The translations under genes were made by a program, and so were the position numbers. The notes below the pieces were generated by a model, which searched no databases, was not told where the DNA came from, and worked only from the letters and a program-made list of their open reading frames with translations. This document shows, piece after piece, positions 31,997 to 53,008 of a stretch of 64,000 nt of DNA. The stretch comes from Naegleria gruberi (lineage: Eukaryota). The stretch lies in assembly GCA_000004985.1 (NCBI GenBank), contig GG738871.1; one strand, written 5' to 3'. Each line of letters starts with the position of its first letter. Position 1 is the stretch's first letter.

Positions 31997-34900
31997 ATGA
32001 TGCCAAGATTTTCGGGTTGCACGCTATTAACATTGTTTTTCATTCAAAGTATTGTGTTAATAATACTTTTAACACAAACAACACCAGTTCTCTCATGGTC
32101 CTATAGTATGAGAACTGTAGCTTCAGCACCAGATACTATTACTCAAATTGTTGGTGGTAATCAATTTATTTATGCTGCCTTTGGTTCTGATAATATTGTT
32201 TATTATAACAGAAGTGATTCAACTCAAATTGATGTCGCTACCATGTTGGCTGCTACTAATACTAATGCTGGTTCTACTTTTAAATATGTCGCTTACCATG
32301 GTCAAACTTCTGGAGGAAATGATATCATTTCTGCTGGTACTGTTAGTGGCATCTTTGATAGTGTTGGATTGTATTCATGCGCTATTGATTCACAGAACCT
32401 TCCTGCCTCTTTGACGGCCTTTACTGGCACTTCTCCAACAAAATTATTTGGTGTGAGAGGAAAATCATCTAATTCTCCATCAGATCCTCAATTTTATCTC
32501 ATGACAGATCAAGGAATTATTGAAGCTGATTCATCTAGTTCTTCGCCTGTTGGCTCTGCTTCATTTAGTACTCAAGTTGACTTGGATTTTAATTCTTCCA
32601 TGGTAAGTTTATTTCTTCTAAAAACGTTGTGATAATCTAATACTTTGATAGATATTTTATTTGGATTCTTCTAGTAATCTTTGGTCGGGTTTGACTAGCA
32701 GTACTAAAGTTATTGGCAGCGGACTTAATTTACCAAGATCTTTGAGCTTTGTTGATACTTTTAATCAAGTAAGTGATGAAATAGTACTCATTTCTCTAAT
32801 TAAATTAGATTTTTATCTCTGATACTGGTAATGGTCGTGTTAAAGTTTTGGATCTATCCTCAAATCAAGTTACCACCATTGCCGGAGGTTCTTCAACTCT
32901 TCCACCAAATGACTTTACACTTGTTAGCTCACCAACTAACTATCAAATTACTCCTACTGGTATTTGGGTTGACAAGTCAAATGGATACGTATACATTGCC
33001 GATGGAGCATACATAAGAGTTCTCACACCAACTTGTAACACCATTTCTGAGGATGCCTCTTCTTCATATCCTTTCTGTGTCTGCAAATCAGGCTATATTC
33101 TCCAAGATGGGGTTTGTGTTGTTAACAACTGTTTGACATGTAACTCAAATCAAACTTGCGTATCAAATGCCTGTGTCTGTAAAAATGGTTATTCTGGAGC
33201 TTTATGTTCTGAATACAAGTGTTTTGGTACCCCTAAAGATAATGTTGGAGTATGTAGTAGTAGAGGTTATTGTACTGCACCAGATAATTGTATCTGTACT
33301 GACTCTATGAAATACTCAGGCGCTTCATGTAATGTTACTACCTGTAATTCCATCCCATCCTATCAATCTAATGTTTGTTCTGGAAAAGGTCAATGTACTG
33401 ATTATAACTTGTGTGTATGTACCAACACAACTGAATACGGAGGAGTAAATTGTGAATATTTCAAATGTAATGGACTCAATTCAAATGATGGAAACGTATG
33501 CAGTAAGAACGGCACTTGTGTTGGAATTAATTCATGTTCATGCAATTCAAATTATGCTGGTAACAACTGCCAGTACCCTAAGTGTAACGGAATCCCATCA
33601 ACTGATACTAATAATGTTTGTAATAAGAATGGTACCTGTGTTGCTGTTGATACCTGCAACTGTAATGTTAATTACACTGGTCAATTCTGTCAATATCCAA
33701 AATGTAATGGTACAGCTTCAAACGATGCAAGTGTTTGTAACTCCAATGGTGTTTGTAGTGGTGTTAATAATTGTGTCTGTAATTCAAATTATACTGGCCA
33801 ATACTGTCAATTCCCTAAGTGTAACGGAATTGGCTCAAATGATATTAATGTTTGCTCAAAGAACGGTACCTGTGTTGCTGTTAATACTTGTAATTGTAAT
33901 GTTAATTATACTGGACCATATTGTCAGTATCCAAAATGTAATGGCACGGCTTCAAATGATATTAATGTGTGCAGTAAGAATGGTAATTGTATCGCTCCAA
34001 ATGTTTGTTCATGTAATTCAAGCTTTTCTGGCCAATTCTGTCAATATCCAAAATGTAATGGAATCCCATCAACTGATACTAATAATGTTTGTAATAAGAA
34101 TGGTACCTGTGTTGCTGTTGATACCTGCAACTGTAATGTTAATTACACAGGTCAATTCTGTCAATATCCAAAGTGTAATGGTACAGCTTCAAATGATATT
34201 AATGTGTGCAGTAAGAATGGTAATTGTATCGCTCCAAATGTTTGTTCATGTAATTCAAGCTACACTGGTCAATTCTGTCAATATCCAAAATGTAATGGCA
34301 TTCCATCAAACGATGCTAGTGTTTGTAATTCAAATGGTACCTGTATTGGTGTTAATACTTGTAATTGTAATGCTAATTATACTGGTCAATTCTGTCAATA
34401 TCCAAAATGTAATGGTACTAGCTTCTAATGATACTAATGTTTGCAGTAAGAAGGTGGTAATTGTATTGCACCAAATGTTTGTTCATGTAATTCAAGCTAC
34501 ACTGGACAATTCTGTCAATTCCCAAAGTGTAATGGTATTGGATCCAATGATGGAAGTGTTTGTAATGCAAATGGTACTTGTATTGGAATTAACATTTGTT
34601 CTTGCAATTCGAATTATGCTGGACAATTCTGTCAATATCCAAAATGTAATAGTATTGCTTCGAATAGTGGCAGTGTTTGTAATTCACAAGGATCATGTGT
34701 TGCACCAAATGTTTGTGTCTGTAATTCAAATTATACTGGCACTTATTGTGACAAACCAAGATGTGGCATCTATTATAAGGGTGATGCTTCTGCTTGTAAT
34801 TCGAGAGGTAGTTGTGATGCTGTTGATAGTTGTACTTGTAGTGATACATCTTCTTGGGGTGGCAATTTGTGTCAATATCCAAAATGTAATGCTGTTCTTT

Positions 34901-37017
34901 CAAATGTTGGAACTGTTTGTAGCAGTAGAGGAACTTGTCAATCTCCAAACAATTGTTCATGCACTGATCCAAGTTCATATGGTGGTTCATATTGTGAAAA
35001 AGCAAAATGTTATGGAATTCTTCAAGGAGATTCAAATGTTTGCAGTGGGCATGGTACTTGCAGTGGTGTGAATCAATGTTCATGCAGTGCTGGATATGGA
35101 GGTGAACAATGTCAATATCCAAAATGTTTCACTATTTTGAGTAATGAAACAACAGTTTGTAACAATAGAAACGGTACATGTACTGCACCTGATACTTGTT
35201 CATGTAACAACGGATGGACTGGAAGCAAGTGTGATGTTGCCATTTGTTTTTCAATTCTCTCCAATTCAACAAAGGTTTGTTCAAACAAGAGAGGTAGTTG
35301 TGTCACACCAGATAATTGTGTTTGTAAAAGTCAATATTCAGGTTCTCAATGTGAATATACCACTTGTTCTGGAATAAGATCAGATCAAACATCGACAGTA
35401 TGTTATGGAAATGGTCAATGTATTGATTATAATACTTGTAATTGTACAACTGGTTATGGACCATCCAATGTATGTCAATATCCAATTTGTGGTGGCTATT
35501 TGGCAAATGATACAAGAGTTTGTAACAATTCAAGAGGTGTATGTTTGAGACCAAATGAATGTAGACCATTAGATCCCGTATGTTATGGTAAAGCTCAGAA
35601 TAATTCAATGGTTTGTAGTGGACATGGTTCATGTATCGATTGGGATTATTGTGAATGTAAAACTGGTTTCAATGGAAATGAATGTCAAAATTGGGAATGT
35701 TATGGAAAGAATTATACCAACTCAAATGTTTGTAACAATGGAAATGGTACCTGCTCATCTGTGAATAATTGTGTTTGTAACAGTGGATGGTATGGAAATG
35801 AATGTACAGTTCCAATGTGTAATGGAATTCTTGCAAATTCATCCCTAGTTTGTAACAATGGAAATGGTACCTGCTCCAAACCAGGTGCATGCCAATGTAA
35901 TACTGGATACACAGGATCTGACTGTTCCATTCCAATTTGTTATGGCAAATTAGGCACTGATACAAGTAATGTTTGTTCAGGAAGAGCAGACTGTATTGGT
36001 TATAACAAGTGTAATTGTGACACTTCCAAGTATAGTGGTTCACAATGTGAATATTTCAAATGTTTTGGTATTCCGTCAAATGATGCTTCAGTTTGCAGCA
36101 GAAACGGAACATGTTCAGGTGTGAATCAATGTTCTTGTAATTATGGTTATGGTTCTTCAAATTGTGACATTTTCACATGTTCAAATGTTCTTGCCACCAA
36201 TTCAAGTGTTTGCAGTGGAAAGGGTGTATGTTATGGAATTGACAAGTGTTCATGTGATTCAGGATATTTTGGATCAAATTGTGAAATTATCTCCTGTTAT
36301 GGAATTCCAAAGTCCAACAATACTGTATGTGGTGGAGTTGGTGAATGTTCACAACTTGATACATGTGTTTGTGGAAGCGGTTATAGAGGCTCAATGTGTG
36401 AATTATCTTACACCTCTTCATCTCAAGCAACACTTCAATTCAACAATACGAATGAATATGTGAATGAACAATTCACAAGCATGGTCACTTTGACAATTAA
36501 TAATCCACTCTTCGGCCAATATTATTTGAGAAGAAGTGTTCAAGTTGTTGTTTCATTTGAAATTAATTCACAATTCAGTTATTCTGAAACACTTTATATT
36601 GAAAATGGAGTTTCATCTGTTTCATTAATGGTGAAATCGTTGAGTCAAACTGGTACATTGAAAGCATCTGCTCAATTAATTGATAATAGCACATTGATTT
36701 CCATTTCAGATAGTATTCAATCTTCAAATAGCATTACAATTCAAAATAGACCTATTGTTGTTCCATCTACAAAGACATCCACAACCAAACCAACAACCTC
36801 TGCACAAACAAGTAGAGCTGTTATCGATACAGGAAGTAATGCAGGAGCCATTGCAGCTGGTGTTATTGTTCCAGTGGCAGTTATTGGAATTGGAGGTGGT
36901 GTCACTGCAGCCATTGTCACAGCAGTTGTTTTATTAAAGAAGAAGGCTGCTGCAGCTGCTGCCGCAGAAATTTCCCATGCTCAACACGTCAATGTTGAAC
37001 TTGTTGAAGGTTTCTAA
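31997..37017 (+). CDS. Large type-I membrane protein. Signal peptide, NHL-repeat region, about 38 tandem tenascin-type EGF modules, stalk, TM helix and a short poly-Ala/Lys tail. Exons 31997..32602, 32652..32768 and 32809..37017. There is an internal +1/+2 compensated frameshift at about 34420-34460.
   Basis: Signal peptide MMPRFSGCTLLTLFFIQSIVLIILLTQT. NHL-like ISDTGNGRVKVLD. The introns are GTAAGT..AG and were verified by hand. The EGF module is C.G..C....C.C...Y.G..C repeated. The C-terminus reads AGVIVPVAVIGIGGGVTAAIVTAVVLLKKKAAAAAAA. This is a paralog of the minus-strand gene at 10770..14504. Confidence 0.75.
33480..34560. repeat. Array of near-identical 93-nt EGF-module coding repeats. 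Stretches of about 89 nt are 100% identical, for example 33590-33678 and 34062-34150.
   Basis: Read directly. Long exact DNA repeats lie inside the CDS, consistent with recent duplication or gene conversion. This is a likely hotspot for assembly collapse. Confidence 0.8.
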
Positions 37018-37398: not shown

Positions 37399-39037
37399 AT
37401 GGTTTCGTCTACTAAGCAATTAACTATTGTTCTGACATTATTGTTTGCTTTTGCAATCATTAACATTTCACATGCTGCTGTTTATCAAGTGAAAGATGCT
37501 GTTACTTTGTGGAGTACTTTTGGTAAGCTCCAAGCTGGTAAGTTTCTAATAACAATGTTTGAATCAAATTAACAACCTCTTTGCATGTAATCGTGTCCGT
37601 TGGCATGTCAAAAACCTATTCGAAACTTGAATAGGTGACGAAATGATCATTAGACAAGGAACCTATTCCACATCCACAGGTGGATCTTACTATAGACAAT
37701 TCACATTGAGAGGTACATCCGCATTACCAATCAAAGTTTATGCTTGGAAAAACGAAACTGTCGAAATTAAGGGAGACGCAGCTGCCAGTCAAAATATTCT
37801 AAACTTTGATGTTGAATATTTTGTCATGGATAATCTTGGTTTCTCTCAAGGAAGTCGTGGTTTAAGATTTTTAAATTCGAAACATTCAGTTTATTCGAAT
37901 CTGAGAGTTAAAAACACTGGTGATGTTGGTATCTCCATGAATGATGGAAATGCGCTTTATCAAAACAATACATTCAGATATAATGAAGTTTCGTATACTA
38001 GAGGAACTGGTGAATGTTTCTATTTGGGTTGTAATAATGCTGGATGCAAGTTTATTTTCAATTTATTGGAAAATAACTATTGTCATCACACAAGCACTGC
38101 AGCCCAAGGAGATGGTATTGAAATCAAGACTGGAAGTTATGGAAATGTTGTTCGAAACAATGTCATTCATGATGGAAACTATCCTGGTATTACCTTATAT
38201 AGTACTTATTACAATGGTGTAGATAAGGATATTGGCATTGCTAATCCAAATATTATTGAAGGAAATATCATTTGGACTGTCAAAGACAATGGCATACAAG
38301 TGACAGGTAATGCCATTATAAGAAATAACATTATTTACAATGCAGGTGCAAGTGGAATTGCCATTCAAACCAATCAAGGAATTGTCGAAAATGTCAAAGT
38401 ATTGCACAATACAGTTGTCAAAGCAGGTGCTGCTTGTATTAGAGTGACAAATTCAGGTCCAGGAATTTTGATTGCAAATAATGCTGCCTATTGTGAAACA
38501 ACAAGTTCCGTTTATATTGCCTCAGCATTGCCTGCTGATGGAATTATCTCAAGAAATGTCATTCAGGGCTCGACTAATGTTCAAGTTGTGAATGGAACTC
38601 TCAATATTGGTAAATTCACAACTGATTTCCAAGGGAGTAGCGCCTTGCCATATAATGTGTTCCCAGTTGTTTCCAGTAATGTGCTTGGAAAGGCAGATTC
38701 AAAGTATGCTACCACTTATGATTTCAATTTTAATACTAGAAATGGGCCAACTTATGATTGTGGTGCTTATCAAGCTAATGGAGCTACTTCAAATCCTGGT
38801 TGGATTCCAACAACTGGTTTTAAGAATACTAATGCTCCAACTCCAGTCAATCCTGTAACTCCTGGTGCTTCAAAGACTCCAACTCCAGTCAATCCAGGCA
38901 CTTCAAAGACAACACCAACCAATCCAGCAAATAGTCCAACTGCAGTTAATTCAAACAAGAGAGTTAACAATGCGAATGTTTTGATGCAAAGTATTGCTGC
39001 CATGATTGTTGGTTTGCTTGTATTCATTGCTATTTAA
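37399..39037 (+). CDS. Secreted right-handed parallel beta-helix (PbH1/pectin-lyase-fold) repeat protein with a Pro/Thr-rich linker and a GPI-like C-terminus. Exons 37399..37537 and 37635..39037.
   Basis: Exon 1 reads MVSSTKQLTIVLTLLFAFAIINISHA (signal peptide). The intron has a GTAAGT donor and ATAG acceptor. The body has repeated NN.I.D.G..GI / GN.I.NN.I.N motifs. The end reads ...NVLMQSIAAMIVGLLVFIAI. Confidence 0.65.
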
Positions 39038-41750: not shown

Positions 41751-42854
41751 TTATTTACTATCGCTCGATGATAATTGTTGTTGTTGGTCCAATGAACACT
41801 TTGGCTTCATAGTAAAATAGATACCATAGTGATCACTGCAAAACAAGTAATCTTTGGTGATGAAAGATAACCTCTGACTTTCCTCCTCCGAGAACAATAG
41901 CTTATTCTTCAATAACTTCTTGATGGAATTAGTTGCAAATAATCGTATAGCAGTGCAGGAGAGCTTAGATTCTGATGTTTTCCATTGTACTACTCGATCC
42001 AAACGTAATTGTTTATCAGCATCGGCAGCACTCATCTTTCCTAACATTGGATTTGTCTTACCATCCATTGTGTATCCCTTGTCTCCATTTGCTGTATGAA
42101 TATCAATCCACAAATCAGAAAATTCCTTAATGTGAGTAATGAAATTGGTCTCAAATGGCATATTCAAGTTAAAATCTCCCAGATAGATCAGCTCATTACA
42201 TGTATTCTTAGTGAGTTGCTTGGCTAGTTCATATAATTCTGCAACTTGCTTCTTTCTCACTTCAAAACATTCCTTCTTGGCTTTCAAGTGAACTGATCCG
42301 AAACAAATTCTAACACATTCTTCTTCTGATGTCTTGTAATCAGCAATTGAAAGAATGACCCTTCTGGAAAAGTTACTTGGGTAAGCAAACTTGTATTTGA
42401 GAAATCTGACATTGGTAAATTTGTGTTTCGATAACATGATCAAATTACCATAGGGAAAGACTGTAGAATGGCCAGAATCCTTCTTCTCACCCACTTCAAT
42501 TTCCGATAAGTAATAGTGATCTCTGACCCATTTCTCACTCATTAGTTTTGCAAGATATTGTGGAGTCATTTCACACAGAGTCAAGACATCCAATTGAAGT
42601 TTTTCCAACATTCTGATTTGAACACTGTATCGAATATCACTATACACAATATTATTCTGATAAATATCAAACAAGACATTAAAAGCAGCACACTTTAGCT
42701 CCTCGGAATTATATGTTACACTAGTATTGCTCCAATCCTTCTTTTCGTCCCATGTACTTGTCAATTCGTCATAGAAATACGCTGGTATAAATCTGAGATC
42801 GGTCTTTTCTGGTAATGTTATTTCATCCACCTTCTTATTATTTTCAGTAGACAT
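41751..42854 (-). CDS. Endonuclease/exonuclease/phosphatase (EEP) family protein, TDP2-like 5'-tyrosyl-DNA phosphodiesterase
   Basis: 367 aa. QLDVLTLCEM, LGDFNLN and a C-terminal FCSDHYGIYF (SDH catalytic triad) in the EEP order. Confidence 0.6.
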   Translation of the reverse strand: MSTENNKKVDEITLPEKTDLRFIPAYFYDELTSTWDEKKDWSNTSVTYNSEELKCAAFNVLFDIYQNNIVYSDIRYSVQIRMLEKLQLDVLTLCEMTPQYLAKLMSEKWVRDHYYLSEIEVGEKKDSGHSTVFPYGNLIMLSKHKFTNVRFLKYKFAYPSNFSRRVILSIADYKTSEEECVRICFGSVHLKAKKECFEVRKKQVAELYELAKQLTKNTCNELIYLGDFNLNMPFETNFITHIKEFSDLWIDIHTANGDKGYTMDGKTNPMLGKMSAADADKQLRLDRVVQWKTSESKLSCTAIRLFATNSIKKLLKNKLLFSEEESQRLSFITKDYLFCSDHYGIYFTMKPKCSLDQQQQLSSSDSK

Positions 42855-43364: not shown

Positions 43365-46300
43365 CTAATTGGAAACTGAGAGTAATTGTTGACGAGAAGT
43401 GTTCATTTGGGAAAGAGTGCTAGAATTGAGCGAATGGGATTGATTGAGGAGTGATTCAATACTGAACATGCTCTTTCTCTTTTCTGCATTGTTTCGATTG
43501 AGAGATTCGTTTGTTTGATTCCAATTCTTATTGATTGGTTGTGTTGAAGCATTGATTGGACTCATGTGCTCCCAGTGGTTAATGAATTTCTTAGAAAATT
43601 GATTAAATTCATCAGAGTTTGCATTTTGAGAGAGACCCTTCATGAGCGATTCAACATTCTTATTAGAAAGATCATTAAATTGCAACATTTCTATTGATTC
43701 CTTTTCCACTCTCAAAGACTCTACTCTATGTTCAGTAAATATAAATTTTACGAGTTGCTTTCTAACTCCTTCATACAGAGCCGATAAGTAAACCAAAGCA
43801 AATACTATATTCTCCAATGAATTATTCAACTCTTGAATCTTGGAGAGATTTTTCTTCTTTTCTCCTTTCAATAATCTTCTTTCATCAATAAGATCCACAA
43901 CCTTGCTCTTTACAATTGGTATCAACTTATTCTCCATTGCAATAGCAATGACATCCTTATATCTTTTCGAAAGTATCATCTTCTTCAATGAGGAAATGGT
44001 GCTAGCTGGCTCACTTCTCAACTTTTCATAAATTTTACTCAAAGATCTCAGACACTGACAGCAATAATAGGCAGATCTGAATTCAATCTGTGAAATCCAA
44101 ATTTTGATCAACTCGGTTAAATGTTTTTGATTATACGAAAAGAATGGAATGACATTCTGCATCAAAGTTACAAAATCATTCACTCTCATCGAGTTCTTAT
44201 CAAAGTTTTGAATAATATGAATTAAATCTGTTGTAATCTTGTTGTAAAAATCTGGATTCAAAAGGAGAGAAATATTGTTATTCTTAATATTGTGAACAAT
44301 AGTCTTGGTAATGGTTGTAATCTTGGAGCTGGAAACAATTTCACTTGTTTGGAATTTCAGAAATTGATAACTATATGGATCTGAAATCATGGTTGAAAGA
44401 ATTTCCATATAAGTATTTGTGAAAATTTCTGTAATATTCTTCATATCGACTGATGAATTTGTTTCAATTAATTCATCTAATTGTCTAATTTGACGAACCA
44501 AACATTTGAAAAAGTTCCAAAAGTATTCTTCGTGTGAAAGATAGCCACAAGCTTGCTTATCCTTCTTTACACATGTCAATATTGTCATGAGAGCCAATTG
44601 TTCTAATTCGATCATGTCAGCATTTCTTAAATCCTTCAAATTGACTTCCTTTCCTTGTCTTTCTGAATGAATTCTTACCATCATTTCACACAACATGTTC
44701 AGCAAACCTTCTTCTCTTATAATTTTCACAATTTCTTCTTTTTGTCTCGAGTAGACACATGTGAAATTCAACATCTTTACCGATTCAAGAATGATTAGAA
44801 TTGGATCGATTGGTTTTCCATTTCTTTCCAATACGAAAGAGAGAACATTCTTTTCATCTTTTAAAAATGTGAACCAATAATCAGCAATGAATGAAACTAA
44901 ATCTTTGATTTGCTTTCCTCTCACCTCTAGAACATGTCTGTTGTTGTAATCTGAAATTTGCTCTGATAAACTTTGGAATAATCTCTTCAATGTTGGATTG
45001 GAAATAATTTCTCTTGATTTGGAGAATGTGGAAAAATCAGGTTTCAAATTTTCCAAATTAAGGAAGTTAACAACTTTAATTTGTTTCTTGCTCATCAACT
45101 TCTTCGAGAAACTACTATCATTCTTATTGTTTTTATCTCTATAATCAATTGAATCATGATCCTTATCAAATGAAAAGTTAGTTGAGCAATCAGAGCTTCT
45201 ATATTTGGTTAAATATTCTCTTGTGCTCATAAATGAATCTTCCACGAGCCTGTACTGTTTCACAGAGATTGGATCCATCATTTTCGAATTTACATGTGCG
45301 AAAGAACTCAATCCATAACAAGCTGCATGATAAAGCATCTCACGAGGGGGAATTTCGAATGTGAAATCTTCATCCTCCATGTTATCAACATTGATATCCA
45401 TTTCGAGAATGTTAATGGATGGATCAGAGAAGATATCTTCATCAAGGGTGGGGTTGTTGAGGTAATCGAATTCTTCATCCATTGAGGAATCTTGAAGTTT
45501 AGTTGCATCAATGGAAGCAGAAATGATATCAAACATGGAAACAACTCTATTCGAAAAGACATCTTCGAAAGTGTCAGTAACAAAGTGAAGCTTTCTATTG
45601 AATTCATTCCTTTCGTGGGCGTTCAACGTGGTCAAAATCTGCAGAATTGTTTCGTCTGTCAAATAGACGAAATTGTCTCCCTTTACAATATCCCAAATAT
45701 CACAACCATTCTTTTGTAATTCTTGTTGATCTTCTATTTTCATCTTGTAACCATACTTATCATCTCCAGTGTAAAGATTAATCAACATTGGAAAACCAGT
45801 TTGTTTCAATTGACTCAAACATTGATTGAAAACTGTGTTTGAAGTTTTCTTTTCAATGCCAAATGTCATGCAGTGGATAAAGTATGATCTAGAAATGTAG
45901 CGAGATGTTAATTGTTCAAAGAGAGTGTCTTCAAAGCTTTCTAATGCATTAGGTAAATAATCTTCACCGAATTGTTGGACGAAATCTCCCAAAAGTAAAG
46001 TAAGGACTTTTGAGGTCGTTTTCATCATATCACAAGTGGAGGAAACCATTTCAAGGGGAGTCGAAACAAACATTGAATCGTCATATGTTTTGAAAGCGTT
46101 AACACTTTCGTATACTTTCATCACTTGTTCCACCATTTGAACTTGATCCAAACTCAACAAATCCTTAATGAGAATCATTTCATTCTGAGCATTAGATTGG
46201 ATAGCAATCATATTAAACAACTCTACAAATTGATCTGAAAGATTGTCAGCCTCTGTTTGAGTTGGAAGATCAAAAACAACAATTTCCTTAATTTGGGAAC

Positions 46301-47982
46301 TGGTGTTTTCACATCTTCTTCTCCAGTTGAGTAAAATTGTTTGGATTTGAAGATTGATTCTCTCTTCAATGAATGAAATAACGGATCCATACAGTAAATC
46401 AAAGATAAAGTGAACTTGTTGTTGGGAATAGAACAGCGATCTACACTGGTCAACTGGTAAATCTAAAAGGTACGATACAATTTCAAGGTATGATCGTTAT
46501 CTTCGGATAGGATATCTGTAAAATCAAAGTTATAAATCCACATGCATGCAGATAGAACTCTATAAATGGAATCAGATTCTTGGGATGAAATCCCAAATTT
46601 GGAAAAGTAATCTTTCATTTTCTTAACATCCATTTTCAAAAAATTCAAGTCTTTATAGTTGACTTGATGTTTCTGAAACATTTTGTAAGTTTTCAAATCA
46701 TCCGAAATGAAATGATTCTCCTTTCCATATTCAGATTCACCAGCATTAATCATGAGAAGAAAGATGTGATACAAGGGTGGGTTTCTCTCTATCTGTAACC
46801 CCTCTCCACACAGAGTTCCCTCTCTAAATATGGATTTAATAGAGAGTGAGTGAATTCTATTATCCTGATCACATTTCATTGTAACAGTTCTCATGTGAGT
46901 TTGTGTGAGAGCTTTCTGATAGAGAATATTCGAAAATATGAGTAAAATGTTGAGAGCTGGACCGACTGTAGATATAATACTGTCCATATATTGCTCTTGT
47001 TGACTTCCTTGATTGGAAGAGTGATAGGGAAGTAGTTTCTTATTTAACAATGTCATGACTACTTGTTGTAATGTTACTTGTTTTTCCTTTGAACCTTCAC
47101 CCAATAATACTATACATTGTTGGTTAATACCATTACTTAATTGAGTATGAAGATAATTTACAACATCTTGACCGTTATTTACAATAGCTGAGGCTTGTTT
47201 CTTGTTGATGAATGTCACATCTGGATTTTTGAGAAGGATATTTCTCTTACCAAAATGCATCTAATGTTGATGTGAAATGTATTGTTATTGTGTTATTCTA
47301 ATGATAGGAGTGATAAAATACTTACTGTGAAAATTTGTGAAGATCTCAATTGATCCATGAATGACTTATTTACAAAATTTGTCCAATTGGCTACAACTTG
47401 CGCCAGGGAATGACAGCCAGGACTGGCCCACATGAGATTCTCCCTCTCCAGGTTGTTCAAGGCTGGAGCATCGACTGGATAACACTTGGATGGATCGACT
47501 TGAATCTCCTGTCCCCCAAGAATTTCATTACTTGAAATGTTTCTCTCGTTGATAATGACCTGGACGTTCTTGACCTGTCTAACCACTTGTGCCAAGTACA
47601 GTTTATCCTTGATTTCAACCCAAACCAATTCGTCTTTCTTGAACATTTTTCTGGTAGGTTCTTTATAAGTTATCTGAGGTGCAGAGCTTGTGCTTGATAC
47701 TGGAAAGTTTGGTATCAGAGCTGTGATTGGAAGAAAGCTTGGCGAGAAGAGGAAATCATCATTGAATGCAGCAGTGGTTGGAGCTACTTGTTCACCACTT
47801 GATGTTGAACTTGTAGTGGAGTGAAGCGATGATGTATCATCTGATTGATTATCATCTTCATATCTATTCTCTAGGAGAGTGATAAATTTTGGAGTGCTCG
47901 GTGGAGAAGGAACTTTAGATGAATGATGCATGTTCTTCATTGGGTCTCTCAACTCAATGATTGATTCTTGATTCGATAACAT
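43365..47982 (-). CDS. Divergent myosin-like protein of about 1500 aa. N-terminal SH3-like region, a motor-domain homolog with degenerate P-loop and switch II, and a long tail. At least 2 introns and one unresolved frame switch near 46470-46500.
   Basis: A GTAAGT intron joins the 47293..47982 ORF to the 46463..47260 ORF (...SSQIFT|MHFGKRNILL...). Motifs align with myosin: NQQCIVLLGEGSKEKQ versus N.S.LI.GESGAGKT; ERNPPLYHIFLLMINAG versus ERNYHIFYQLLAG; FGISSQESDSIYRVLSACMWIYNFDF versus GF..EE..IF..L...LHLGN..F; IVVFDLPTQTEADNLSDQFVELFNMIAIQSNAQNEMI versus IGVLDIAGFE.F..NSFEQLCIN..NE.LQ. The motor frame then continues as the 951-aa ORF 43365..46220. Confidence 0.55.
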
Positions 47983-49607
47983 TCAAGAATATACTAGTAT
48001 TCTATTTTGCAACGTTTTTTGAAATGTTCAATGAGAAAAATCGTTAGGTCAAATTTGATATGGAGACTTTCAGTTGTTTTTTTAAAGAAAACTTTCATGA
48101 GACTGAACCAGATTGGTGTAAGTTATGGAAAAAACGTTACGGATTGAAAACAATAACGGTTAGAATCTGAATTTGCAATTGCGATGAATAAGGGAGTTAG
48201 GAGGAGTGAAGTTGCTAGAGTCGCAAAGAAAAGAGAATCATTTTGATGTCCCTGCCAAGCTGTCTGGCATGTCCTTAATAAAGGAATTTCCTAAATAAAA
48301 TTTCTGTTAGTGGCTTAACGAATTAAAATTCTATCTATAAGGAATCGTAGACACTGGGATAATTGTGAGAAGTTGCGAAAGTGAGCATAATTAAGATTAT
48401 TTTGTAAGGTATCAGTACGATTTCCCTTATGAATACCTTGGACAATGCTCACAAATCTAGTTAAGCCATCTCAAAACAATTAAATTGGTATCTTCTGCCT
48501 TTGTGAATTTAATAACTGATAGATTCTTCTCTCCACTTTGGTTTGACTGTAAAGTAGTATTTATATAGATGTATGTACAATAGGATAGACCTATTATATC
48601 TTACAAGGTGATCACTATTCGGTTTAAATAATGTCATTCTGTTGTCGTGTTATTTATTTAAACATAGACGCCTGTCCATAACAATGTGAAAAAGAGGCCA
48701 AGTCCTAAAATGATCGAAGAGGAGGCAGCCAATGTAATTTCCTTGAAGAAACTTCTGTGTTGCTTTGTTGTAGTTGTTTCATAACTGTTATTTGTGATGG
48801 AAATTCCAAAATCATCATAATCAGCATTATCCAATAGTAATTCATCATCAACAATTATTTTAACACGTAAATTTGATAATCAATAATTTCCACACCAGAT
48901 AATTCCACAATGTGTGATGATTAAATACAAATCCAAATTTCGCAAATAGTTATACAAGCAAAATTAATAATTTGTCGAATTAATTTATATTGAATTGTAT
49001 CCACAAAGTGATCATCGTCAATTTTTCATCATCAAAACAAAATATAATTAATAATTTTATATACCTCCGGAATCTAGATCCCTCATCAACTTACACCAAA
49101 AATAAAGCCATCAATACAAAACCAATAGATGAGAGAACAACAGCCAAGGTTGGGTAGCTGTTTGGATCAACAGGGCTGTGATATTGAAGATTGGAGGACA
49201 TTTTATTCTTGTTGTTGGATCAAGCAACAATTCCTCTGCTGAAAAAAACTCGCAAAGATTCTTCCCGCTCTTTGGTAGTTTTAATAAGTATTCTTCAGGC
49301 TTTGATTTAAGCTTGTGGAGTTGAGAGAGATTTTGGCTTACGTTCAAACGAATAATGAAACTAAGAATTCAATAGATATCAAGGAGAATTGATGAAAGGA
49401 AATAGGAGTTGTGTTTCATTATTAATTGAAATAGGAATCTAAATGGAATGTTCAAAAGAAGGAACTGAATTGGATTGTTTTAATAATGGTCAATTTTAAG
49501 TTAATGACAACCCCAGCAAATCAATAATCTAATATCACTCAATTCAGCATGCTGGTTTCTAATTTGAAATTATTAAACTATTTATTGAAATTTAAATTGA
49601 ACTATTT

Positions 49608-51038
49608 CTAAAGTGAAGGCATTTGTTGACTGATACAGTGCATTCCTCCTCCACCCATGTTAATAGCTTCAGTTGAAATTGCAACAATTACATGATTTGG
49701 ATATACTCGCTTAAATATTTGAAGAGCTTCTTCATCAGAATCTTTAACGTGTTGGGGAAGACCTTCACGATAATATTTGGAGATGAGAACAGTATTATTA
49801 CTCACTAAGAAATTCAAATAACTCGAGGCAATAATGTACTTGTAAGTTTGGTCATCATGCATAACAAGTCCATCTTCAAATTCCAATTCCTGTAATGTAT
49901 CGAAACAGGAGTCACCCTTCTTGAGATCCATAACAATGTGTGGTCCAACTGGAACTTTGATAATTTCGAATGGTTCTCCTTTGAGATTGGTTTGCTTTTT
50001 GAGGAGTTCATAGTTTTGCTCGAGTCTCTTTCTATTCTCAACAGAGATACAATCATTCAAGTGAACTGGTACATAGGCAAGGAGAATGGTATTCTCAGTG
50101 GCAAATCTAGCCCACTCGTCAATGTGTCCTCCAGTACCATAAGATGCCAATAATTCAGTGCCTGGAATGAGTCCTCGATATGAGCATTGATCTTCAACAA
50201 GACCCTCAGTTTCCAACCAGATGATCTTTTCAGCACTTTTACCAAAAACTCTCTTCATTTCATGCTCGATTTGTTCTCTATTTTCAATATTGTTATCCTT
50301 ATTTCTTTGCATTTCAACATGTTCGACCATCATCATGACACCATTTCCATTGTACTCTCTGTCACCACCTTCACTGATGAGGTGAGAACGTACAACTGGA
50401 ATATTTAACTTGTTAGCAACCTTCTATCAANNNNNNNNNNNNNNNNNNNNNNNNNNNNNNNNNNNNNNNNNNNNNNNNNNACGAAATTGGACCATTATCT
50501 CTCATCCACACATCCAAATGTTCGATAATATGATATCTCATTCTCTTTTCAATCAATTCAACAGAAATATTATTTCTTTGTTTTAAAAACTTTTCCACAT
50601 TCATCTTATCTTCCTCTTCATGAATAATCAAATCAATATAAAACTCTGATCCATTCACATTATTATTCAAGAGCAAAGCTTCCATCATTGGAAGTCTATC
50701 ATTCATTAATTCACAAAGAATTCACAACATGATCACTTACTGCACTTGATGGAAAGGACTATATCTGATTGGTTCTTCTGGACAAACCTTGAATGCAAAT
50801 TCATAATTATTCTCCTTTGTGGTTGGGCCTAATTAAAGTGTAAAGTTAGTGTCATTCGGAAGTTGATGATCACTTACCAAGAGCCATCCAAATACTTTCG
50901 TGATGTTCAAATTCACCTATTTTCATAATAGAATTCATTTGTTTCATCATGGAATGTCCACCAAACAGAAAAAAACAATTAAATCTATCGACACATTGAA
51001 AATGTTTGTGGAAACGTACCTGGGAAAACGAAGGACAT
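49608..51038 (-). CDS. Agmatine deiminase (porphyranase-type PAD family). Multi-exon, and interrupted by a 50-N assembly gap.
   Basis: Spliced N-terminus MSFVFPG|EFEHHESIWMALG..., matching EWE.H...W..WP. The middle exon has HLDVWMRDNGPI (W.RD.GP). The C-terminal exon has ...MGGGGMHCISQQMP (catalytic Cys) and YLNFLVSNNTVLI. Donors are GTACGT and GTAAGT. Confidence 0.75.
50431..50480. other. Assembly gap (50 N) inside the agmatine deiminase gene
   Basis: A run of n characters in the sequence. Confidence 1.
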
Positions 51039-51502: not shown

Positions 51503-53008
51503 ATGAACAATTCAAAATCTTCAATGATTTCATTCGGGGCAGCAATTGTCTCGATGATAGCAGTCACATTGATGATGCTATCAATAGCCTCTGCCTTCTC
51601 GGTAAAGAGTGATATCGATTATCGTACAGTATTGTCTGATTATGTGAAGGGAAATAATCAATACTTTAAATATCAATTGAAGGGTACTTATGATAATGAT
51701 TATGGAAAATTCATAATCTTCAACATGACCAGTGTAAAGTGGTTGGATGAGAAGGAGCTTGGGAATAGCTGCTATTGGTTCCACTTGGTCGAAATTGCCA
51801 TTCCAAAGAAGATTAAGCAACAATCAAATGTGTTGATGTTGGTTGCTGGTGGATCTCAAAAGGAGATTGCACCAACAAGTGATAATGAATTAATGAAAAT
51901 GGCTGCCAGTACTCAATCTATTGTTGCATCTATTCATCAAATTCCAAATCAACCTTTGGTTTTCAATTCTGATCCAACAAGACAACAAAGAATTGAAGAT
52001 GAAATTCTTGCCTATGCTTGGGCAAAATTCATGCAAAACACAACTCAAACTGGGTGGATTCCAAGATTACCTATGGTTAAGGCAACCATGTTGGCAATGG
52101 ATGTTGTTCAAGAATATTTGAGAACTACCTTATCAATTAATGTAATGAATTTCCATGTTGCAGGAGCAAGTAAGAGAGGTTGGACCACTAATTTGGTAGG
52201 TGTTGTTGATAAGAGAGTTAGAAGTATCATGCCAATCGTTATTCCAGTAATGAAAACTAGAGATATTCTTGGTAAGTTAACAAAACTATATTAGTTAATG
52301 ACCCTATTGTAAAATATAGAACATTCTTACAATTCGCTTTGCACATGGCCAGAAGCAATGGGTGATTATGTTAAAGAAGGTATCACTACAAAATTAAACT
52401 CTAAAGAATTCCATCAACTGACAACAGTTATAGATCCTTTCGAATATAATGATATTTTGGCAACAATCAACAAGTATTTCATTTATGCCACTGGTGATCA
52501 ATTCTTCCTTTGCGATCTTAGTCAATTCTCTTATCCATACCTTAAGGGAGGTGACCAACTCAAACATTTAAGATATGTTCCAAATACTGATCACTCTTTG
52601 GATGGATCTGATGCCCAAGTTTCTGCTTTAGCTTATTACTTTAGTTTGGCCAACAAGCTTCCACTTCCAGTTTACAATTTTACAGCAGTTTCTGATAGGA
52701 CTGGCGTTTCTGTTGGTGTCAAGGTAATGAGCCCGATTCCACCATCTGCTGTCCTGTTGTGGGAAGCTCGTGCTCCACAAAGAGATTTCAGACTTCAAAC
52801 CATTGGAAAAGCATGGAAACCAAGACCACTCCAATTGTCTAAAGATGGTAGTGTTTCAGTTCACCTGGATAATCCAGCCACTGGCTATTATGCTGCCTTT
52901 GTTGAATTAACATTTGATTATTTAGGAACACAAATTCCTCTCAAGTTTACAACATCAGTTTATGTTCTTCCTGATATTTTGCCATGTAAATACCATAATA
53001 AAGTTTAA
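51503..53008 (+). CDS. PhoPQ-activated pathogenicity-related protein (PqaA) family secreted protein. Exons 51503..52270 and 52353..53008.
   Basis: Signal peptide MNNSKSSMISFGAAIVSMIAVTLMMLSIASA. The intron is GTAAGT...CAG in phase 1 and joins ...VMKTRDIL-E-AMGDYVKEGITT. GASKRGW is a serine-hydrolase-like motif. The overall length and order resemble the bacterial/dictyostelid PhoPQ-related family. This is from memory and unverified. Confidence 0.55.

What the first reader, a model, noticed from the sequence alone, without database searches (positions are those of the whole stretch)
43365..47982. Myosin-like protein with a degenerate ATPase (predicted pseudo-motor)
A gene model of about 1500 aa aligns motif by motif with the myosin head: the SH3-like N-terminus, the region after the P-loop, the ERNYHIFYQ-like helix, the LHLGN..F region, and the switch-II-to-relay region with FEQ/NEKLQ-like residues. 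The P-loop GESGAGKT is replaced by GEGSKEKQ. Switch II DIxGFE is replaced by DLPTQTE. Such a protein should bind actin or partners like a myosin but cannot hydrolyse ATP. A pseudo-myosin in an amoeba would be unusual. The model also needs a frame switch near 46470-46500, in a T/A homopolymer context (ccttttag). That may be a sequencing error or a sign of pseudogenisation.
Basis: partly seen in the sequence, partly recalled or inferred. Interest (0 to 1): 0.7.

Follow-up and report, generated by a model that had tools for sequence, protein, structure and literature searches.

The report
Dead-motor myosin relative in Naegleria
This Naegleria gruberi gene encodes a roughly 1500-residue protein whose front half descends from the myosin motor but has lost every canonical ATP-hydrolysis residue, and databases both mis-model it and list it as "hypothetical".

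Summary
On the minus strand, 47982..43365 encodes a 1517-aa protein (N. gruberi NAEGRDRAFT_49516). It has one 65-nt intron and a single-base frame break near 46479-46489.

Full-length orthologs without the break exist in N. lovaniensis, N. fowleri and Willaertia. All keep GEG(S/T)KEKQ at the P-loop position and a degenerate switch II.

Homology to the myosin motor is real but very remote:
- Pfam Myosin_head scores 24 bits, below its 33.3 cutoff.
- Profile-profile hhalign gives E=1e-16.
- The family profile recovers true myosins across billions of proteins.

Key residues of the P-loop, switch I and switch II are replaced. The replacement motifs are nevertheless the most conserved stretches of the protein. 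By alignment, the CM actin-binding loop is deleted and the lower-50K region is about 67 residues shorter. No IQ motif is present. The tail is an armadillo-like helical solenoid.

The gene is under purifying selection, so it is not an old pseudogene. The NCBI model wrongly splices out the P-loop half. The frame break is probably an assembly error, but this is unproven. Canonical ATP hydrolysis is very unlikely, and actin binding is doubtful.

The parts
47326..47982 (-). Exon 1 (residues 1-219): unconserved Ser/Thr/Pro-rich N-terminus, then an SH3-like segment, up to ...SSQIFT. The start may instead be the ATG 42 nt downstream that the NCBI model uses.
47261..47325 (-). Intron 1: 65 nt, GTAAGT...AG, phase 0.
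   Evidence: N. lovaniensis has a 111-nt intron at the same site, QVFT|MHMG. N. fowleri has none.
46487..47260 (-). Exon 2, first reading frame (residues 220-477). It holds the equivalents of the beta1-beta2/purine loop, P-loop, switch I, ERNYHIFYQ and LHLGN. The NCBI model XP_002676647 treats this stretch as intron.
   Evidence: All 6 differences from strain contig L002 are synonymous.
46479..46489 (-). Best placement of the single-base frame break (one base missing relative to orthologs, in ACCTTGAAATT). The permitted interval is 46463-46496.
43365..46487 (-). Exon 2, second reading frame (residues 478-1517 plus the stop at 43365-43367). It holds the rest of the motor-like domain, an acidic linker, the helical-repeat tail and a low-complexity C-terminus.
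47470..47640 (-). SH3-like N-terminal segment (KKDELVWVEIKDK...KCYPVD). Conserved in orthologs and in P0006 and P0015.
   Evidence: The fold is not confirmed because the model is low-confidence here.
47078..47101 (-). P-loop equivalent GEGSKEKQ, aligned to Dictyostelium GESGAGKT 179-186. The first Gly, the Glu and the Lys are kept; the second Walker Gly becomes Glu and the Mg-binding Thr becomes Gln.
   Evidence: This is the most conserved 15-aa window of the protein, 93% invariant.
46889..46930 (-). Switch I equivalent NILYQKALTQTHMR, aligned to NAKTTRNNNSSRFGK. Ser236, Ser237 and Arg238 are all replaced.
46251..46274 (-). Switch II equivalent FDLPTQTE, aligned to LDISGFE. Only the Asp is kept; Gly457 is lost.
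46167..46244 (-). Relay-helix equivalent NLSDQFVELFNMIAIQSNAQNEMILI.
45792..45884 (-). Equivalent of the HFVRCI strand and SH2/SH1 helices: YFIHCMTFGIEKKTSN...QLKQTGF.
45633..45785 (-). Converter equivalent (LINLYTGDDKYGYKM ... VKGDNFVYLTDETILQIL). No IQ motif follows it.
43581..45050 (-). C-terminal all-alpha helical-repeat (armadillo/HEAT-like) domain, residues 957-1446.
   Evidence: AF2 pLDDT 77. Foldseek gives only weak ARM-repeat matches, E about 1e-2. No PDB sequence hit. The tail of the distant member P0015 aligns at hhalign E=7e-5.

Best explanation
This is a real, selectively maintained protein-coding gene of Naegleria gruberi (NAEGRDRAFT_49516). Its N-terminal 650 or so residues are a very divergent descendant of the myosin motor domain.

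Shown by alignment and fold comparison:
- The core of the fold is kept: the central beta-sheet strands, the relay helix, the SH1/SH2 region and the converter.
- The residues that bind Mg-ATP and sense the gamma-phosphate are replaced: P-loop Gly and Thr, switch I Ser-Ser-Arg, and switch II Gly.
- The cardiomyopathy (CM) actin-binding loop is deleted.
- The lower-50K region is shortened.
- No IQ lever follows the converter.

Inferred: the protein cannot run the canonical actomyosin ATPase cycle. It most likely works as a non-motor scaffold, with the fossil motor domain acting as a fixed or ligand-modulated interaction module joined by an acidic linker to an armadillo-like solenoid that binds partners.

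The replacement motifs lining the old nucleotide pocket are the most conserved part of the protein. The pocket has therefore been re-specified rather than left to decay.

The single-base frame break in this assembly is most likely a sequencing or assembly error, or at most a very recent lesion. The public gene model avoided the break by declaring the whole P-loop half an 880-nt intron, which is wrong.
For: Identity and orthologs:
- N. gruberi identity, and orthologs in N. lovaniensis, N. fowleri and Willaertia aligned over the full length.
- Synteny PAD_porph-Ost5-gene-EEP is conserved.

Homology to myosin:
- hhalign of the family profile against a myosin profile: Prob 98.8%, E=1.1e-16.
- The family HMM against 1.84 billion representatives recovers bona fide myosin heads at E=2e-5 to 5e-4.
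- The profile against the 5.8-billion-sequence database: the only hits outside the family are PF00063 myosins.
- PDB profile search: nearly all top hits are myosins, E about 0.03, and the two alignments shown (myosin I, myosin XI) are in register.
- Foldseek: the top 50 hits are all myosin, E=2.5e-10.

Motif substitutions.

Conservation:
- Pocket-motif windows are 80-93% invariant against 19% overall.
- No IQ motif.
- The tail is an alpha-solenoid.

Selection:
- 13 synonymous to 2 nonsynonymous differences from a 97.9%-identical strain contig, P=8e-8. Exon 2 alone is 6 to 0.
- dN/dS between N. lovaniensis and N. fowleri is about 0.17 for the head and 0.20 for the tail.
- 1040 open codons follow the break, chance about 1e-36.
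- Orthologs have a continuous exon.
Against: - Pfam Myosin_head is below its gathering cutoff (24 versus 33.3 bits on the 265-aa piece), and full-length proteins give no hit.
- The AlphaFold head model is poor (pLDDT 48.7, TM 0.35-0.43). It is of the N. lovaniensis ortholog, not the N. gruberi protein.
- Loss of ATPase and loss of actin binding are inferred from sequence only.
- The Walker lysine and the NP of the purine loop are kept, so nucleotide binding without hydrolysis is not excluded.
- No expression data could be accessed.
- No independent N. gruberi read covers the frame break. The second-strain contig ends 25 nt short, so a genuine null allele in strain NEG-M remains possible.
- dS between the Naegleria species is saturated (above 1), so the dN/dS values are rough.
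Confidence: 0.78

Rival explanations
1. The frame break is genuine, so the N. gruberi NEG-M copy is a recently inactivated allele. Translation would stop at 46463 after about 484 residues. The family remains functional in other species.
For: - The break is present in the only assembly available.
- No plausible small intron repairs it.
- No independent sequence spans it.
- From general knowledge, NEG-M is a long-cultured axenic laboratory strain.
Against: - 1040 codons downstream remain open and align with orthologs throughout.
- Substitutions against a natural strain are almost all synonymous up to 25 nt before the break.
- It is a single missing base in a run of short homopolymers, which is typical of a consensus error.
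Confidence: 0.15
2. It is still an active, very unusual ATPase or motor that uses a deviant nucleotide site.
For: - The pocket-lining motifs are the most conserved part of the protein.
- The Walker Lys, the first P-loop Gly, the switch II Asp and the purine-loop NP are retained.
- The relay, SH1 and converter elements are retained.
Against: - The aligned positions of Thr186, Ser236/237, Arg238 and Gly457 are all replaced in every ortholog. From established myosin enzymology these residues are essential for Mg-ATP binding and hydrolysis.
- No lever or IQ motif.
- The CM loop is absent and the lower-50K region is truncated.
- Drosophila myosin-18 neither binds nor hydrolyses ATP (PMC3122231).
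Confidence: 0.05
3. The resemblance to myosin is convergent or chance, and the protein belongs to an unrelated helical family.
For: Pfam is below threshold. Single-sequence comparisons are weak: phmmer against PDB gives E=0.11, and the family profile against the single Dictyostelium sequence gives hhalign E=0.046.
Against: - Profile-profile E=1e-16 with co-linear motifs over 436 columns.
- Database-wide profile hits are exclusively myosins.
- Fold searches return only myosins, then kinesins.
Confidence: 0.02

Closest known systems
Class-18 myosins (e.g. Drosophila myosin-18; PMC3122231)
   Same: The motor domain neither binds nor hydrolyses ATP and is proposed to act as a tether or scaffold rather than a motor.
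   Different: - From general knowledge, myosin-18 is readily recognised as a myosin by sequence, has a coiled-coil tail and often a PDZ domain. It binds actin (PMC3122231).
- Here all three nucleotide motifs are replaced, the CM loop is deleted, the lower-50K region is shortened, there is no IQ motif or coiled coil, the tail is an ARM-like solenoid, and Pfam does not reach threshold.
[quoted passage not shown]
   Same: These proteins were retained in the superfamily on the basis of fold-determining residues only, with disrupted ATP-hydrolysis motifs, actin binding or lever.
   Different: I could not establish whether this particular gene is in that catalogue. No identifier is given in the text or in the supplements held. 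Public records call all orthologs hypothetical.
Vik1/Cik1 motor-homology domain of the kinesin superfamily (PDB 2o0a)
   Different: It belongs to the kinesin branch, not myosin. It works as the partner of an active motor (Kar3), and no such partner is known here.
Canonical Naegleria myosins (classes 1 and 2; bioRxiv 10.1101/2025.05.16.654244)
   Same: Same organism and same ancestral fold.
   Different: [quoted passage not shown] This protein shares only about 13% identity with myosins and lacks the catalytic residues.

Membership tests
Myosin superfamily (homology of the motor domain) | Match to Pfam Myosin_head (PF00063) at the curated gathering score | tested here: not met
   The 265-aa exon-2 piece gives E=1.4e-5 and 24 bits against a cutoff of 33.3. 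The full-length N. gruberi protein and three orthologs give no hit.
Myosin superfamily (homology of the motor domain) | Statistically significant, co-linear profile similarity to bona fide myosin heads | tested here: met
   - hhalign Prob 98.8%, E=1.1e-16, 436 columns.
- The family HMM finds PF00063 proteins at E=2e-5 to 5e-4 among 1.84e9 and 5.8e9 sequences, and no other family.
Myosin superfamily (homology of the motor domain) | Myosin motor fold | tested here: met
   - Foldseek: 234 PDB hits at E<=1e-3; the top 50 listed are all myosin motor domains, best E=2.5e-10.
- Caveat: the model is of the N. lovaniensis ortholog, with pLDDT 48.7.
Functional myosin (actin-activated ATPase motor) | P-loop GESGAGKT (Walker A GxxxxGK[ST]) | tested here: not met
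   GEGSKEKQ in Naegleria and GEGTKEKQ in Willaertia. The second Gly becomes Glu and Thr becomes Gln.
Functional myosin (actin-activated ATPase motor) | Switch I NxNSSRFGK (Mg-binding Ser and salt-bridge Arg) | tested here: not met
   The aligned segment is (K)ALTQTH(M/P)R, invariant in all four orthologs apart from that one position; Ser-Ser-Arg are replaced.
Functional myosin (actin-activated ATPase motor) | Switch II DIxGFE (gamma-phosphate Gly and salt-bridge Glu) | tested here: not met
   DLPTQTE, DLPAATE and DIPGVMD. Only the Asp is conserved.
Functional myosin (actin-activated ATPase motor) | Actin-binding elements (CM loop, helix-loop-helix, loop 2) | tested here: inconclusive
   - The alignment shows about 19 residues missing where the CM hairpin lies.
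- There are about 67 fewer residues between switch II and the HFVRCI equivalent.
- No HYAGxVxY-like segment is present.
- The structural model is too poor here to be decisive.
Functional myosin (actin-activated ATPase motor) | Lever arm with IQ light-chain-binding motifs | tested here: not met
   No strict IQ consensus (IQxxxRGxxxR) is found in any of the four orthologs; a looser pattern gave two hits, neither after the converter.
Functional myosin (actin-activated ATPase motor) | ATP hydrolysis, actin binding and motility | not testable with these tools
   Requires biochemistry on a recombinant head domain.
Armadillo/HEAT-repeat alpha-solenoids (tail) | Stacked helical repeats with significant structural similarity to ARM/HEAT proteins | tested here: inconclusive
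   - The AF2 model is all-alpha, pLDDT 77.
- The best Foldseek hits are ARM proteins (beta-catenin, APC-ARM, importin-alpha), but only at E about 1e-2 and TM 0.15-0.25.
- No Pfam or PDB sequence hit.

The most novel reading that the evidence does not exclude
The old nucleotide pocket has been re-specified, not merely broken. Its replacement motifs (GEG[ST]KEKQVTLQQ, KALTQTH.R, TMH.G.RN.LLKNPD) are near-invariant across Naegleria and Willaertia. The domain may therefore bind a different ligand, or bind a nucleotide without hydrolysing it, and use the retained relay, SH1 and converter path as a conformational switch that controls the ARM-repeat tail. That would make this an unrecognised class of myosin-derived sensor or pseudo-enzyme. 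Related sequences occur on at least one further, unidentified eukaryotic contig (P0015) and in other environmental and sequencing-run assemblies (P0010, P0007).
Probability: 0.2. Interest if true: 0.7.

Novelty: new variant of a known kind. Interest (0 to 1): 0.5.

Why it matters
- It adds a myosin-derived family, recognised only in vahlkampfiid amoebae so far, that Pfam-threshold surveys miss by design. Sebe-Pedros et al. 2014 (PMC3942036) used the PF00063 gathering cutoff. All public records call the orthologs hypothetical.
- It corrects a wrong reference gene model, which drops the 286 residues that carry the most conserved motifs.
- Within this four-ortholog set, the "dead" active site is the most strongly conserved region of the protein. 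That makes it a useful test case for what motor folds are used for once catalysis is lost.
- Naegleria's actin cytoskeleton is under active study and N. fowleri is a lethal pathogen, so a conserved lineage-specific cytoskeletal relative is a reasonable candidate for localisation and interaction studies.

Tried and rejected
1. **Repairing the frame with a small intron.** All GT..AG pairs of the right phase are 20-113 nt and would remove residues that align with orthologs, so this was rejected.
2. **Independent N. gruberi sequence across the break.** The environmental strain contig L002 ends at window 46521, 25 nt short. Exact look-ups of the two window ORFs found nothing. A word-index search with the 401-aa junction region returned nothing at all, not even the known orthologs, so it was uninformative.
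3. **Weak single-sequence tests.** Pfam on the full-length protein gave no hit. phmmer against PDB gave E=0.11. The family profile against the single Dictyostelium sequence gave hhalign E=0.046 and an hmmsearch match of only 3 bits. Only profiles on both sides gave a decisive result.
4. **Structure prediction of the N. gruberi head itself.** The N. lovaniensis ortholog was modelled instead.
5. **afdb50 fold library.** Unavailable.
6. **Tail.** No PDB sequence hit and only generic ARM matches.
7. **Literature.** No paper mentions the locus tags or accessions. The supplements of PMC5583752 that are held do not list individual Naegleria myosins.
8. **Expression evidence from the intronless N. fowleri contig.** Rejected, because the N. 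fowleri genome copy is also intronless.
Full report
**What is there**

The window is Naegleria gruberi: the public protein XP_002676647.1 / NAEGRDRAFT_49516 / D2VH12 is 100% identical to part of the translation. The gene lies on the minus strand.

- Three collinear ORFs cover it: 47982..47293, 47260..46463 and 46220..43365. The last is open upstream to about 46496.
- The first two are separated by a 65-nt GTAAGT...AG phase-0 intron at 47325..47261.
- The second and third differ by one base of reading frame.
- Joining them gives a 1517-aa protein.

**Orthologs and the gene model**

Full-length orthologs exist in N. lovaniensis (1761 aa), N. fowleri (1843/1844 aa in two assemblies) and Willaertia magna (1376 aa). 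All are labelled hypothetical. They align with the joined N. gruberi protein from the SH3-like segment to the C-terminus.

- N. lovaniensis has one 111-nt intron at exactly the same codon boundary (QVFT|MHMG), followed by a continuous 4341-nt exon.
- N. fowleri is intronless in both assemblies.
- Gene order is conserved: PAD_porph, Ost5, this gene, then an endonuclease/exonuclease/phosphatase-family gene.
- The NCBI N. gruberi model (1231 aa) jumps from ...QIFT straight to CRSLFYS.... It therefore treats the roughly 880 nt from 47325 to about 46446, my reading of that junction, as intron.
- That stretch is a 265-codon ORF, and it contains the three most conserved windows of the whole protein.

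**Is exon 2 coding, and is the gene alive?**

An ENA metagenome contig (L002; ERZ929261) is 97.9% identical to the window over 50621..46521.

- Within the proposed coding sequence it differs at 15 positions: 13 synonymous, 2 nonsynonymous and no indels. In exon 2 the count is 6 of 6 synonymous.
- The synonymous-site fraction is 0.205, so the probability of at least 13 of 15 synonymous by chance is 8e-8. For exon 2 alone it is 6e-5.
- Between N. lovaniensis and N. fowleri, dN/dS is about 0.17 for the head and about 0.20 for the tail. dS is saturated, so these values are rough.
- Downstream of the frame break, 1040 codons remain open. The chance probability at this base composition is about 1e-36.
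- The family is therefore under purifying selection, and the N. gruberi copy is not an old pseudogene.

**The frame break**

Frame 0 reads ...SEDNDHTLKLYRTF*. The other frame reads ...YLEIVSYLLDLPVDQCRSLF... The orthologs read ...SENS(Q/E)TL(Q/R)VVSELLG....

- The best reconstruction is TL(K/E)IVSYLL, with one base missing within ACCTTGAAATT at about 46479-46489.
- No GT..AG pair of plausible size and phase can repair the frame without deleting conserved residues.
- I could not obtain an independent read across the site. L002 stops 25 nt short, and the exact look-ups failed.
- I judge an assembly error most likely. A recent null allele in the laboratory strain has about 15% probability.

**Is it a myosin relative?**

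Simple tests are marginal.
- Pfam Myosin_head scores 24 bits against a 33.3-bit cutoff on the exon-2 piece, and nothing on the full-length proteins.
- phmmer against PDB gives E=0.11, with the best hit a myosin I.
- A four-ortholog profile against PDB gives E about 0.03, and nearly all top hits are myosins; the two alignments shown are in register.

Stronger tests are decisive.
- The family HMM, searched exhaustively against 1.84 billion representatives, returned 11 hits. Besides family members, these were three proteins with Pfam Myosin_head at 1e-78 to 1e-92, found at library-wide E=1.8e-5 to 4.8e-4.
- An extended profile against the 5.8-billion-sequence index returned only N. gruberi sequences and PF00063 myosins, at E=3e-5 to 5e-4.
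- hhalign of the extended family profile against a small myosin profile gave Prob 98.8%, E=1.1e-16, with 436 co-linear columns. These span family positions 144-619 and Dictyostelium positions 164-701. The myosin profile was Dictyostelium myosin II, checked against PDB 1d0x, plus the three retrieved myosins.
- An AlphaFold2 model of the N. lovaniensis head is poor (pLDDT 48.7, pTM 0.48). Even so, Foldseek returned 234 PDB hits at E<=1e-3, the top 50 all myosin motor domains (best E=2.5e-10, TM 0.35-0.43).

**Motif state**

| Element | Dictyostelium myosin II | This family | Consequence |
|---|---|---|---|
| P-loop | GESGAGKT | GEGSKEKQ | Second Walker Gly becomes Glu; Mg-ligand Thr becomes Gln; Lys kept |
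| Switch I | NNNSSRFGK | (K)ALTQTHMR | Ser236, Ser237 and Arg238 lost |
| Switch II | DISGFE | DLPTQT(E) | Gly457 lost |

- The substitutions are shared by all four orthologs. Because the orthologs' exon is continuous, alternative splicing cannot restore canonical motifs.
- By alignment, about 19 residues are missing where the CM-loop hairpin lies.
- Only about 130 residues separate switch II from the HFVRCI equivalent (YFIHCMTF), against about 197 in Dictyostelium.
- There is no HYAGxVxY-like segment.
- No IQ motif follows the converter.
- Equivalents of the seven central strands (my own assignment from the aligned segments, not tested separately), the relay helix, the SH2/SH1 region and the converter are recognisable.
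- Canonical ATP hydrolysis is therefore very unlikely. This is an inference from established roles of these residues. There is experimental precedent in Drosophila myosin-18, which neither binds nor hydrolyses ATP (PMC3122231).
- The canonical actin interface also appears largely dismantled, so actin binding cannot be assumed.

**An unexpected feature**

Across the four orthologs, 19% of N. gruberi positions are invariant overall. The most conserved 15-residue windows of the entire protein are:

| Window | Invariant positions |
|---|---|
| LLGEGSKEKQVTLQQ (P-loop equivalent) | 93% |
| SNILYQKALTQTHMR (switch I equivalent) | 80% |
| TMHFGKRNILLKNPD (beta1-beta2 / purine-loop equivalent) | 80% |
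| FIHCMTFGIEKKTSN | 73% |

The former active site has been replaced by a different motif set that is itself tightly constrained. This argues for a retained structural, allosteric or ligand-binding role and against simple decay.

**Rest of the protein**

- Residues 1-110 are low-complexity and unconserved.
- Residues 801-956 form an acidic linker.
- Residues 957-1446 fold, at pLDDT 77, into an all-alpha solenoid. Its best matches are weak hits to armadillo proteins (beta-catenin, APC-ARM, importin-alpha) at E about 1e-2. There is no Pfam or PDB sequence match.

**Wider family**

More distant members come from unnamed sources: metagenome contigs and Logan assemblies of sequencing runs.
- P0015 (1215 aa) lies on a gene-dense contig, read uninterrupted, next to profilin and kinesin genes.
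- P0010 is 1258 aa.
- P0007, P0016 and P0006 are further members.
- P0015, P0010 and P0007 also have degenerate P-loops (GPSTKEKC, GETSYREKE, GNTDKS...).
- The P0015 tail aligns with the Naegleria tail at hhalign E=7e-5.
- The head-plus-solenoid architecture therefore appears older than the Naegleria and Willaertia lineages.

**Relation to what is known**

[quoted passage not shown] They also mention orphan myosins in Naegleria (PMC5583752).
- I could not determine whether this gene is among them.
- Surveys that rely on the PF00063 gathering cutoff (PMC3942036) cannot have found it.
- No paper in the library cites its identifiers.
- I therefore class it as a new variant of a known kind, a myosin-derived pseudo-motor, and not as categorically new.

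**Verdict**

The expectation of myosin-like actin binding is not supported. The frame break is most likely an artefact that led to a wrong public gene model.

Noticed in passing
window 46446-47325 (minus strand): The public N. gruberi model XP_002676647.1 (1231 aa) treats this roughly 880-nt stretch as an intron. It is a 265-codon ORF that is conserved in four species and shows only synonymous differences from a second strain. The reference annotation needs correcting.
   Followed up: yes
L002 (ENA ERZ929261, contig k127_367171), matching window 46521-50621: An environmental metagenome contig is 97.9% identical to this N. gruberi region, so a close natural relative of the laboratory strain is present in that sample. 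Differences are concentrated outside coding sequence and include indels there.
   Followed up: partly
window 32848-37017 (plus strand): Two long ORFs in different frames (32848-34428 and 34867-37017) both encode teneurin/EGF-type repeats. A third overlapping ORF (33452-35071) has no Pfam hit. This may be one large EGF-repeat gene interrupted by an intron or another frame problem.
   Followed up: partly
window 48658-48834, 49608-50336 and 41751-42854 (all minus strand): The neighbouring genes are Ost5, a PAD_porph-type (agmatine/peptidyl-arginine deiminase-like) gene and an endonuclease/exonuclease/phosphatase-family gene. PAD_porph and Ost5 occupy the same upstream positions in N. lovaniensis and N. 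fowleri; a similar-sized gene (no Pfam hit on record) follows downstream in N. lovaniensis, so local synteny is largely conserved.
   Followed up: yes
window 37643-39037 and 51503-52294 (plus strand): These ORFs carry domains that I know mainly from bacterial proteins: Beta_helix/NosD and a PhoPQ-activated pathogenicity-related protein. They are possible ancient horizontal acquisitions in Naegleria.
   Followed up: no
L003 10001-13648 (JGI metagenome 3300062526, 47-kb contig): P0015, a distant member of the same degenerate-myosin family, is encoded as an uninterrupted 1215-codon ORF on a gene-dense contig from an unidentified eukaryote. A profilin gene lies immediately beside it and a kinesin-MORN gene is nearby. 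The organism is unknown.
   Followed up: partly
tool behaviour: The word-indexed protein search failed to return the known orthologs P0002-P0004 for a 401-aa sub-query and for the family profile. The absence of extra named homologs from that tool is therefore weak evidence about how widely the family is distributed.
   Followed up: no
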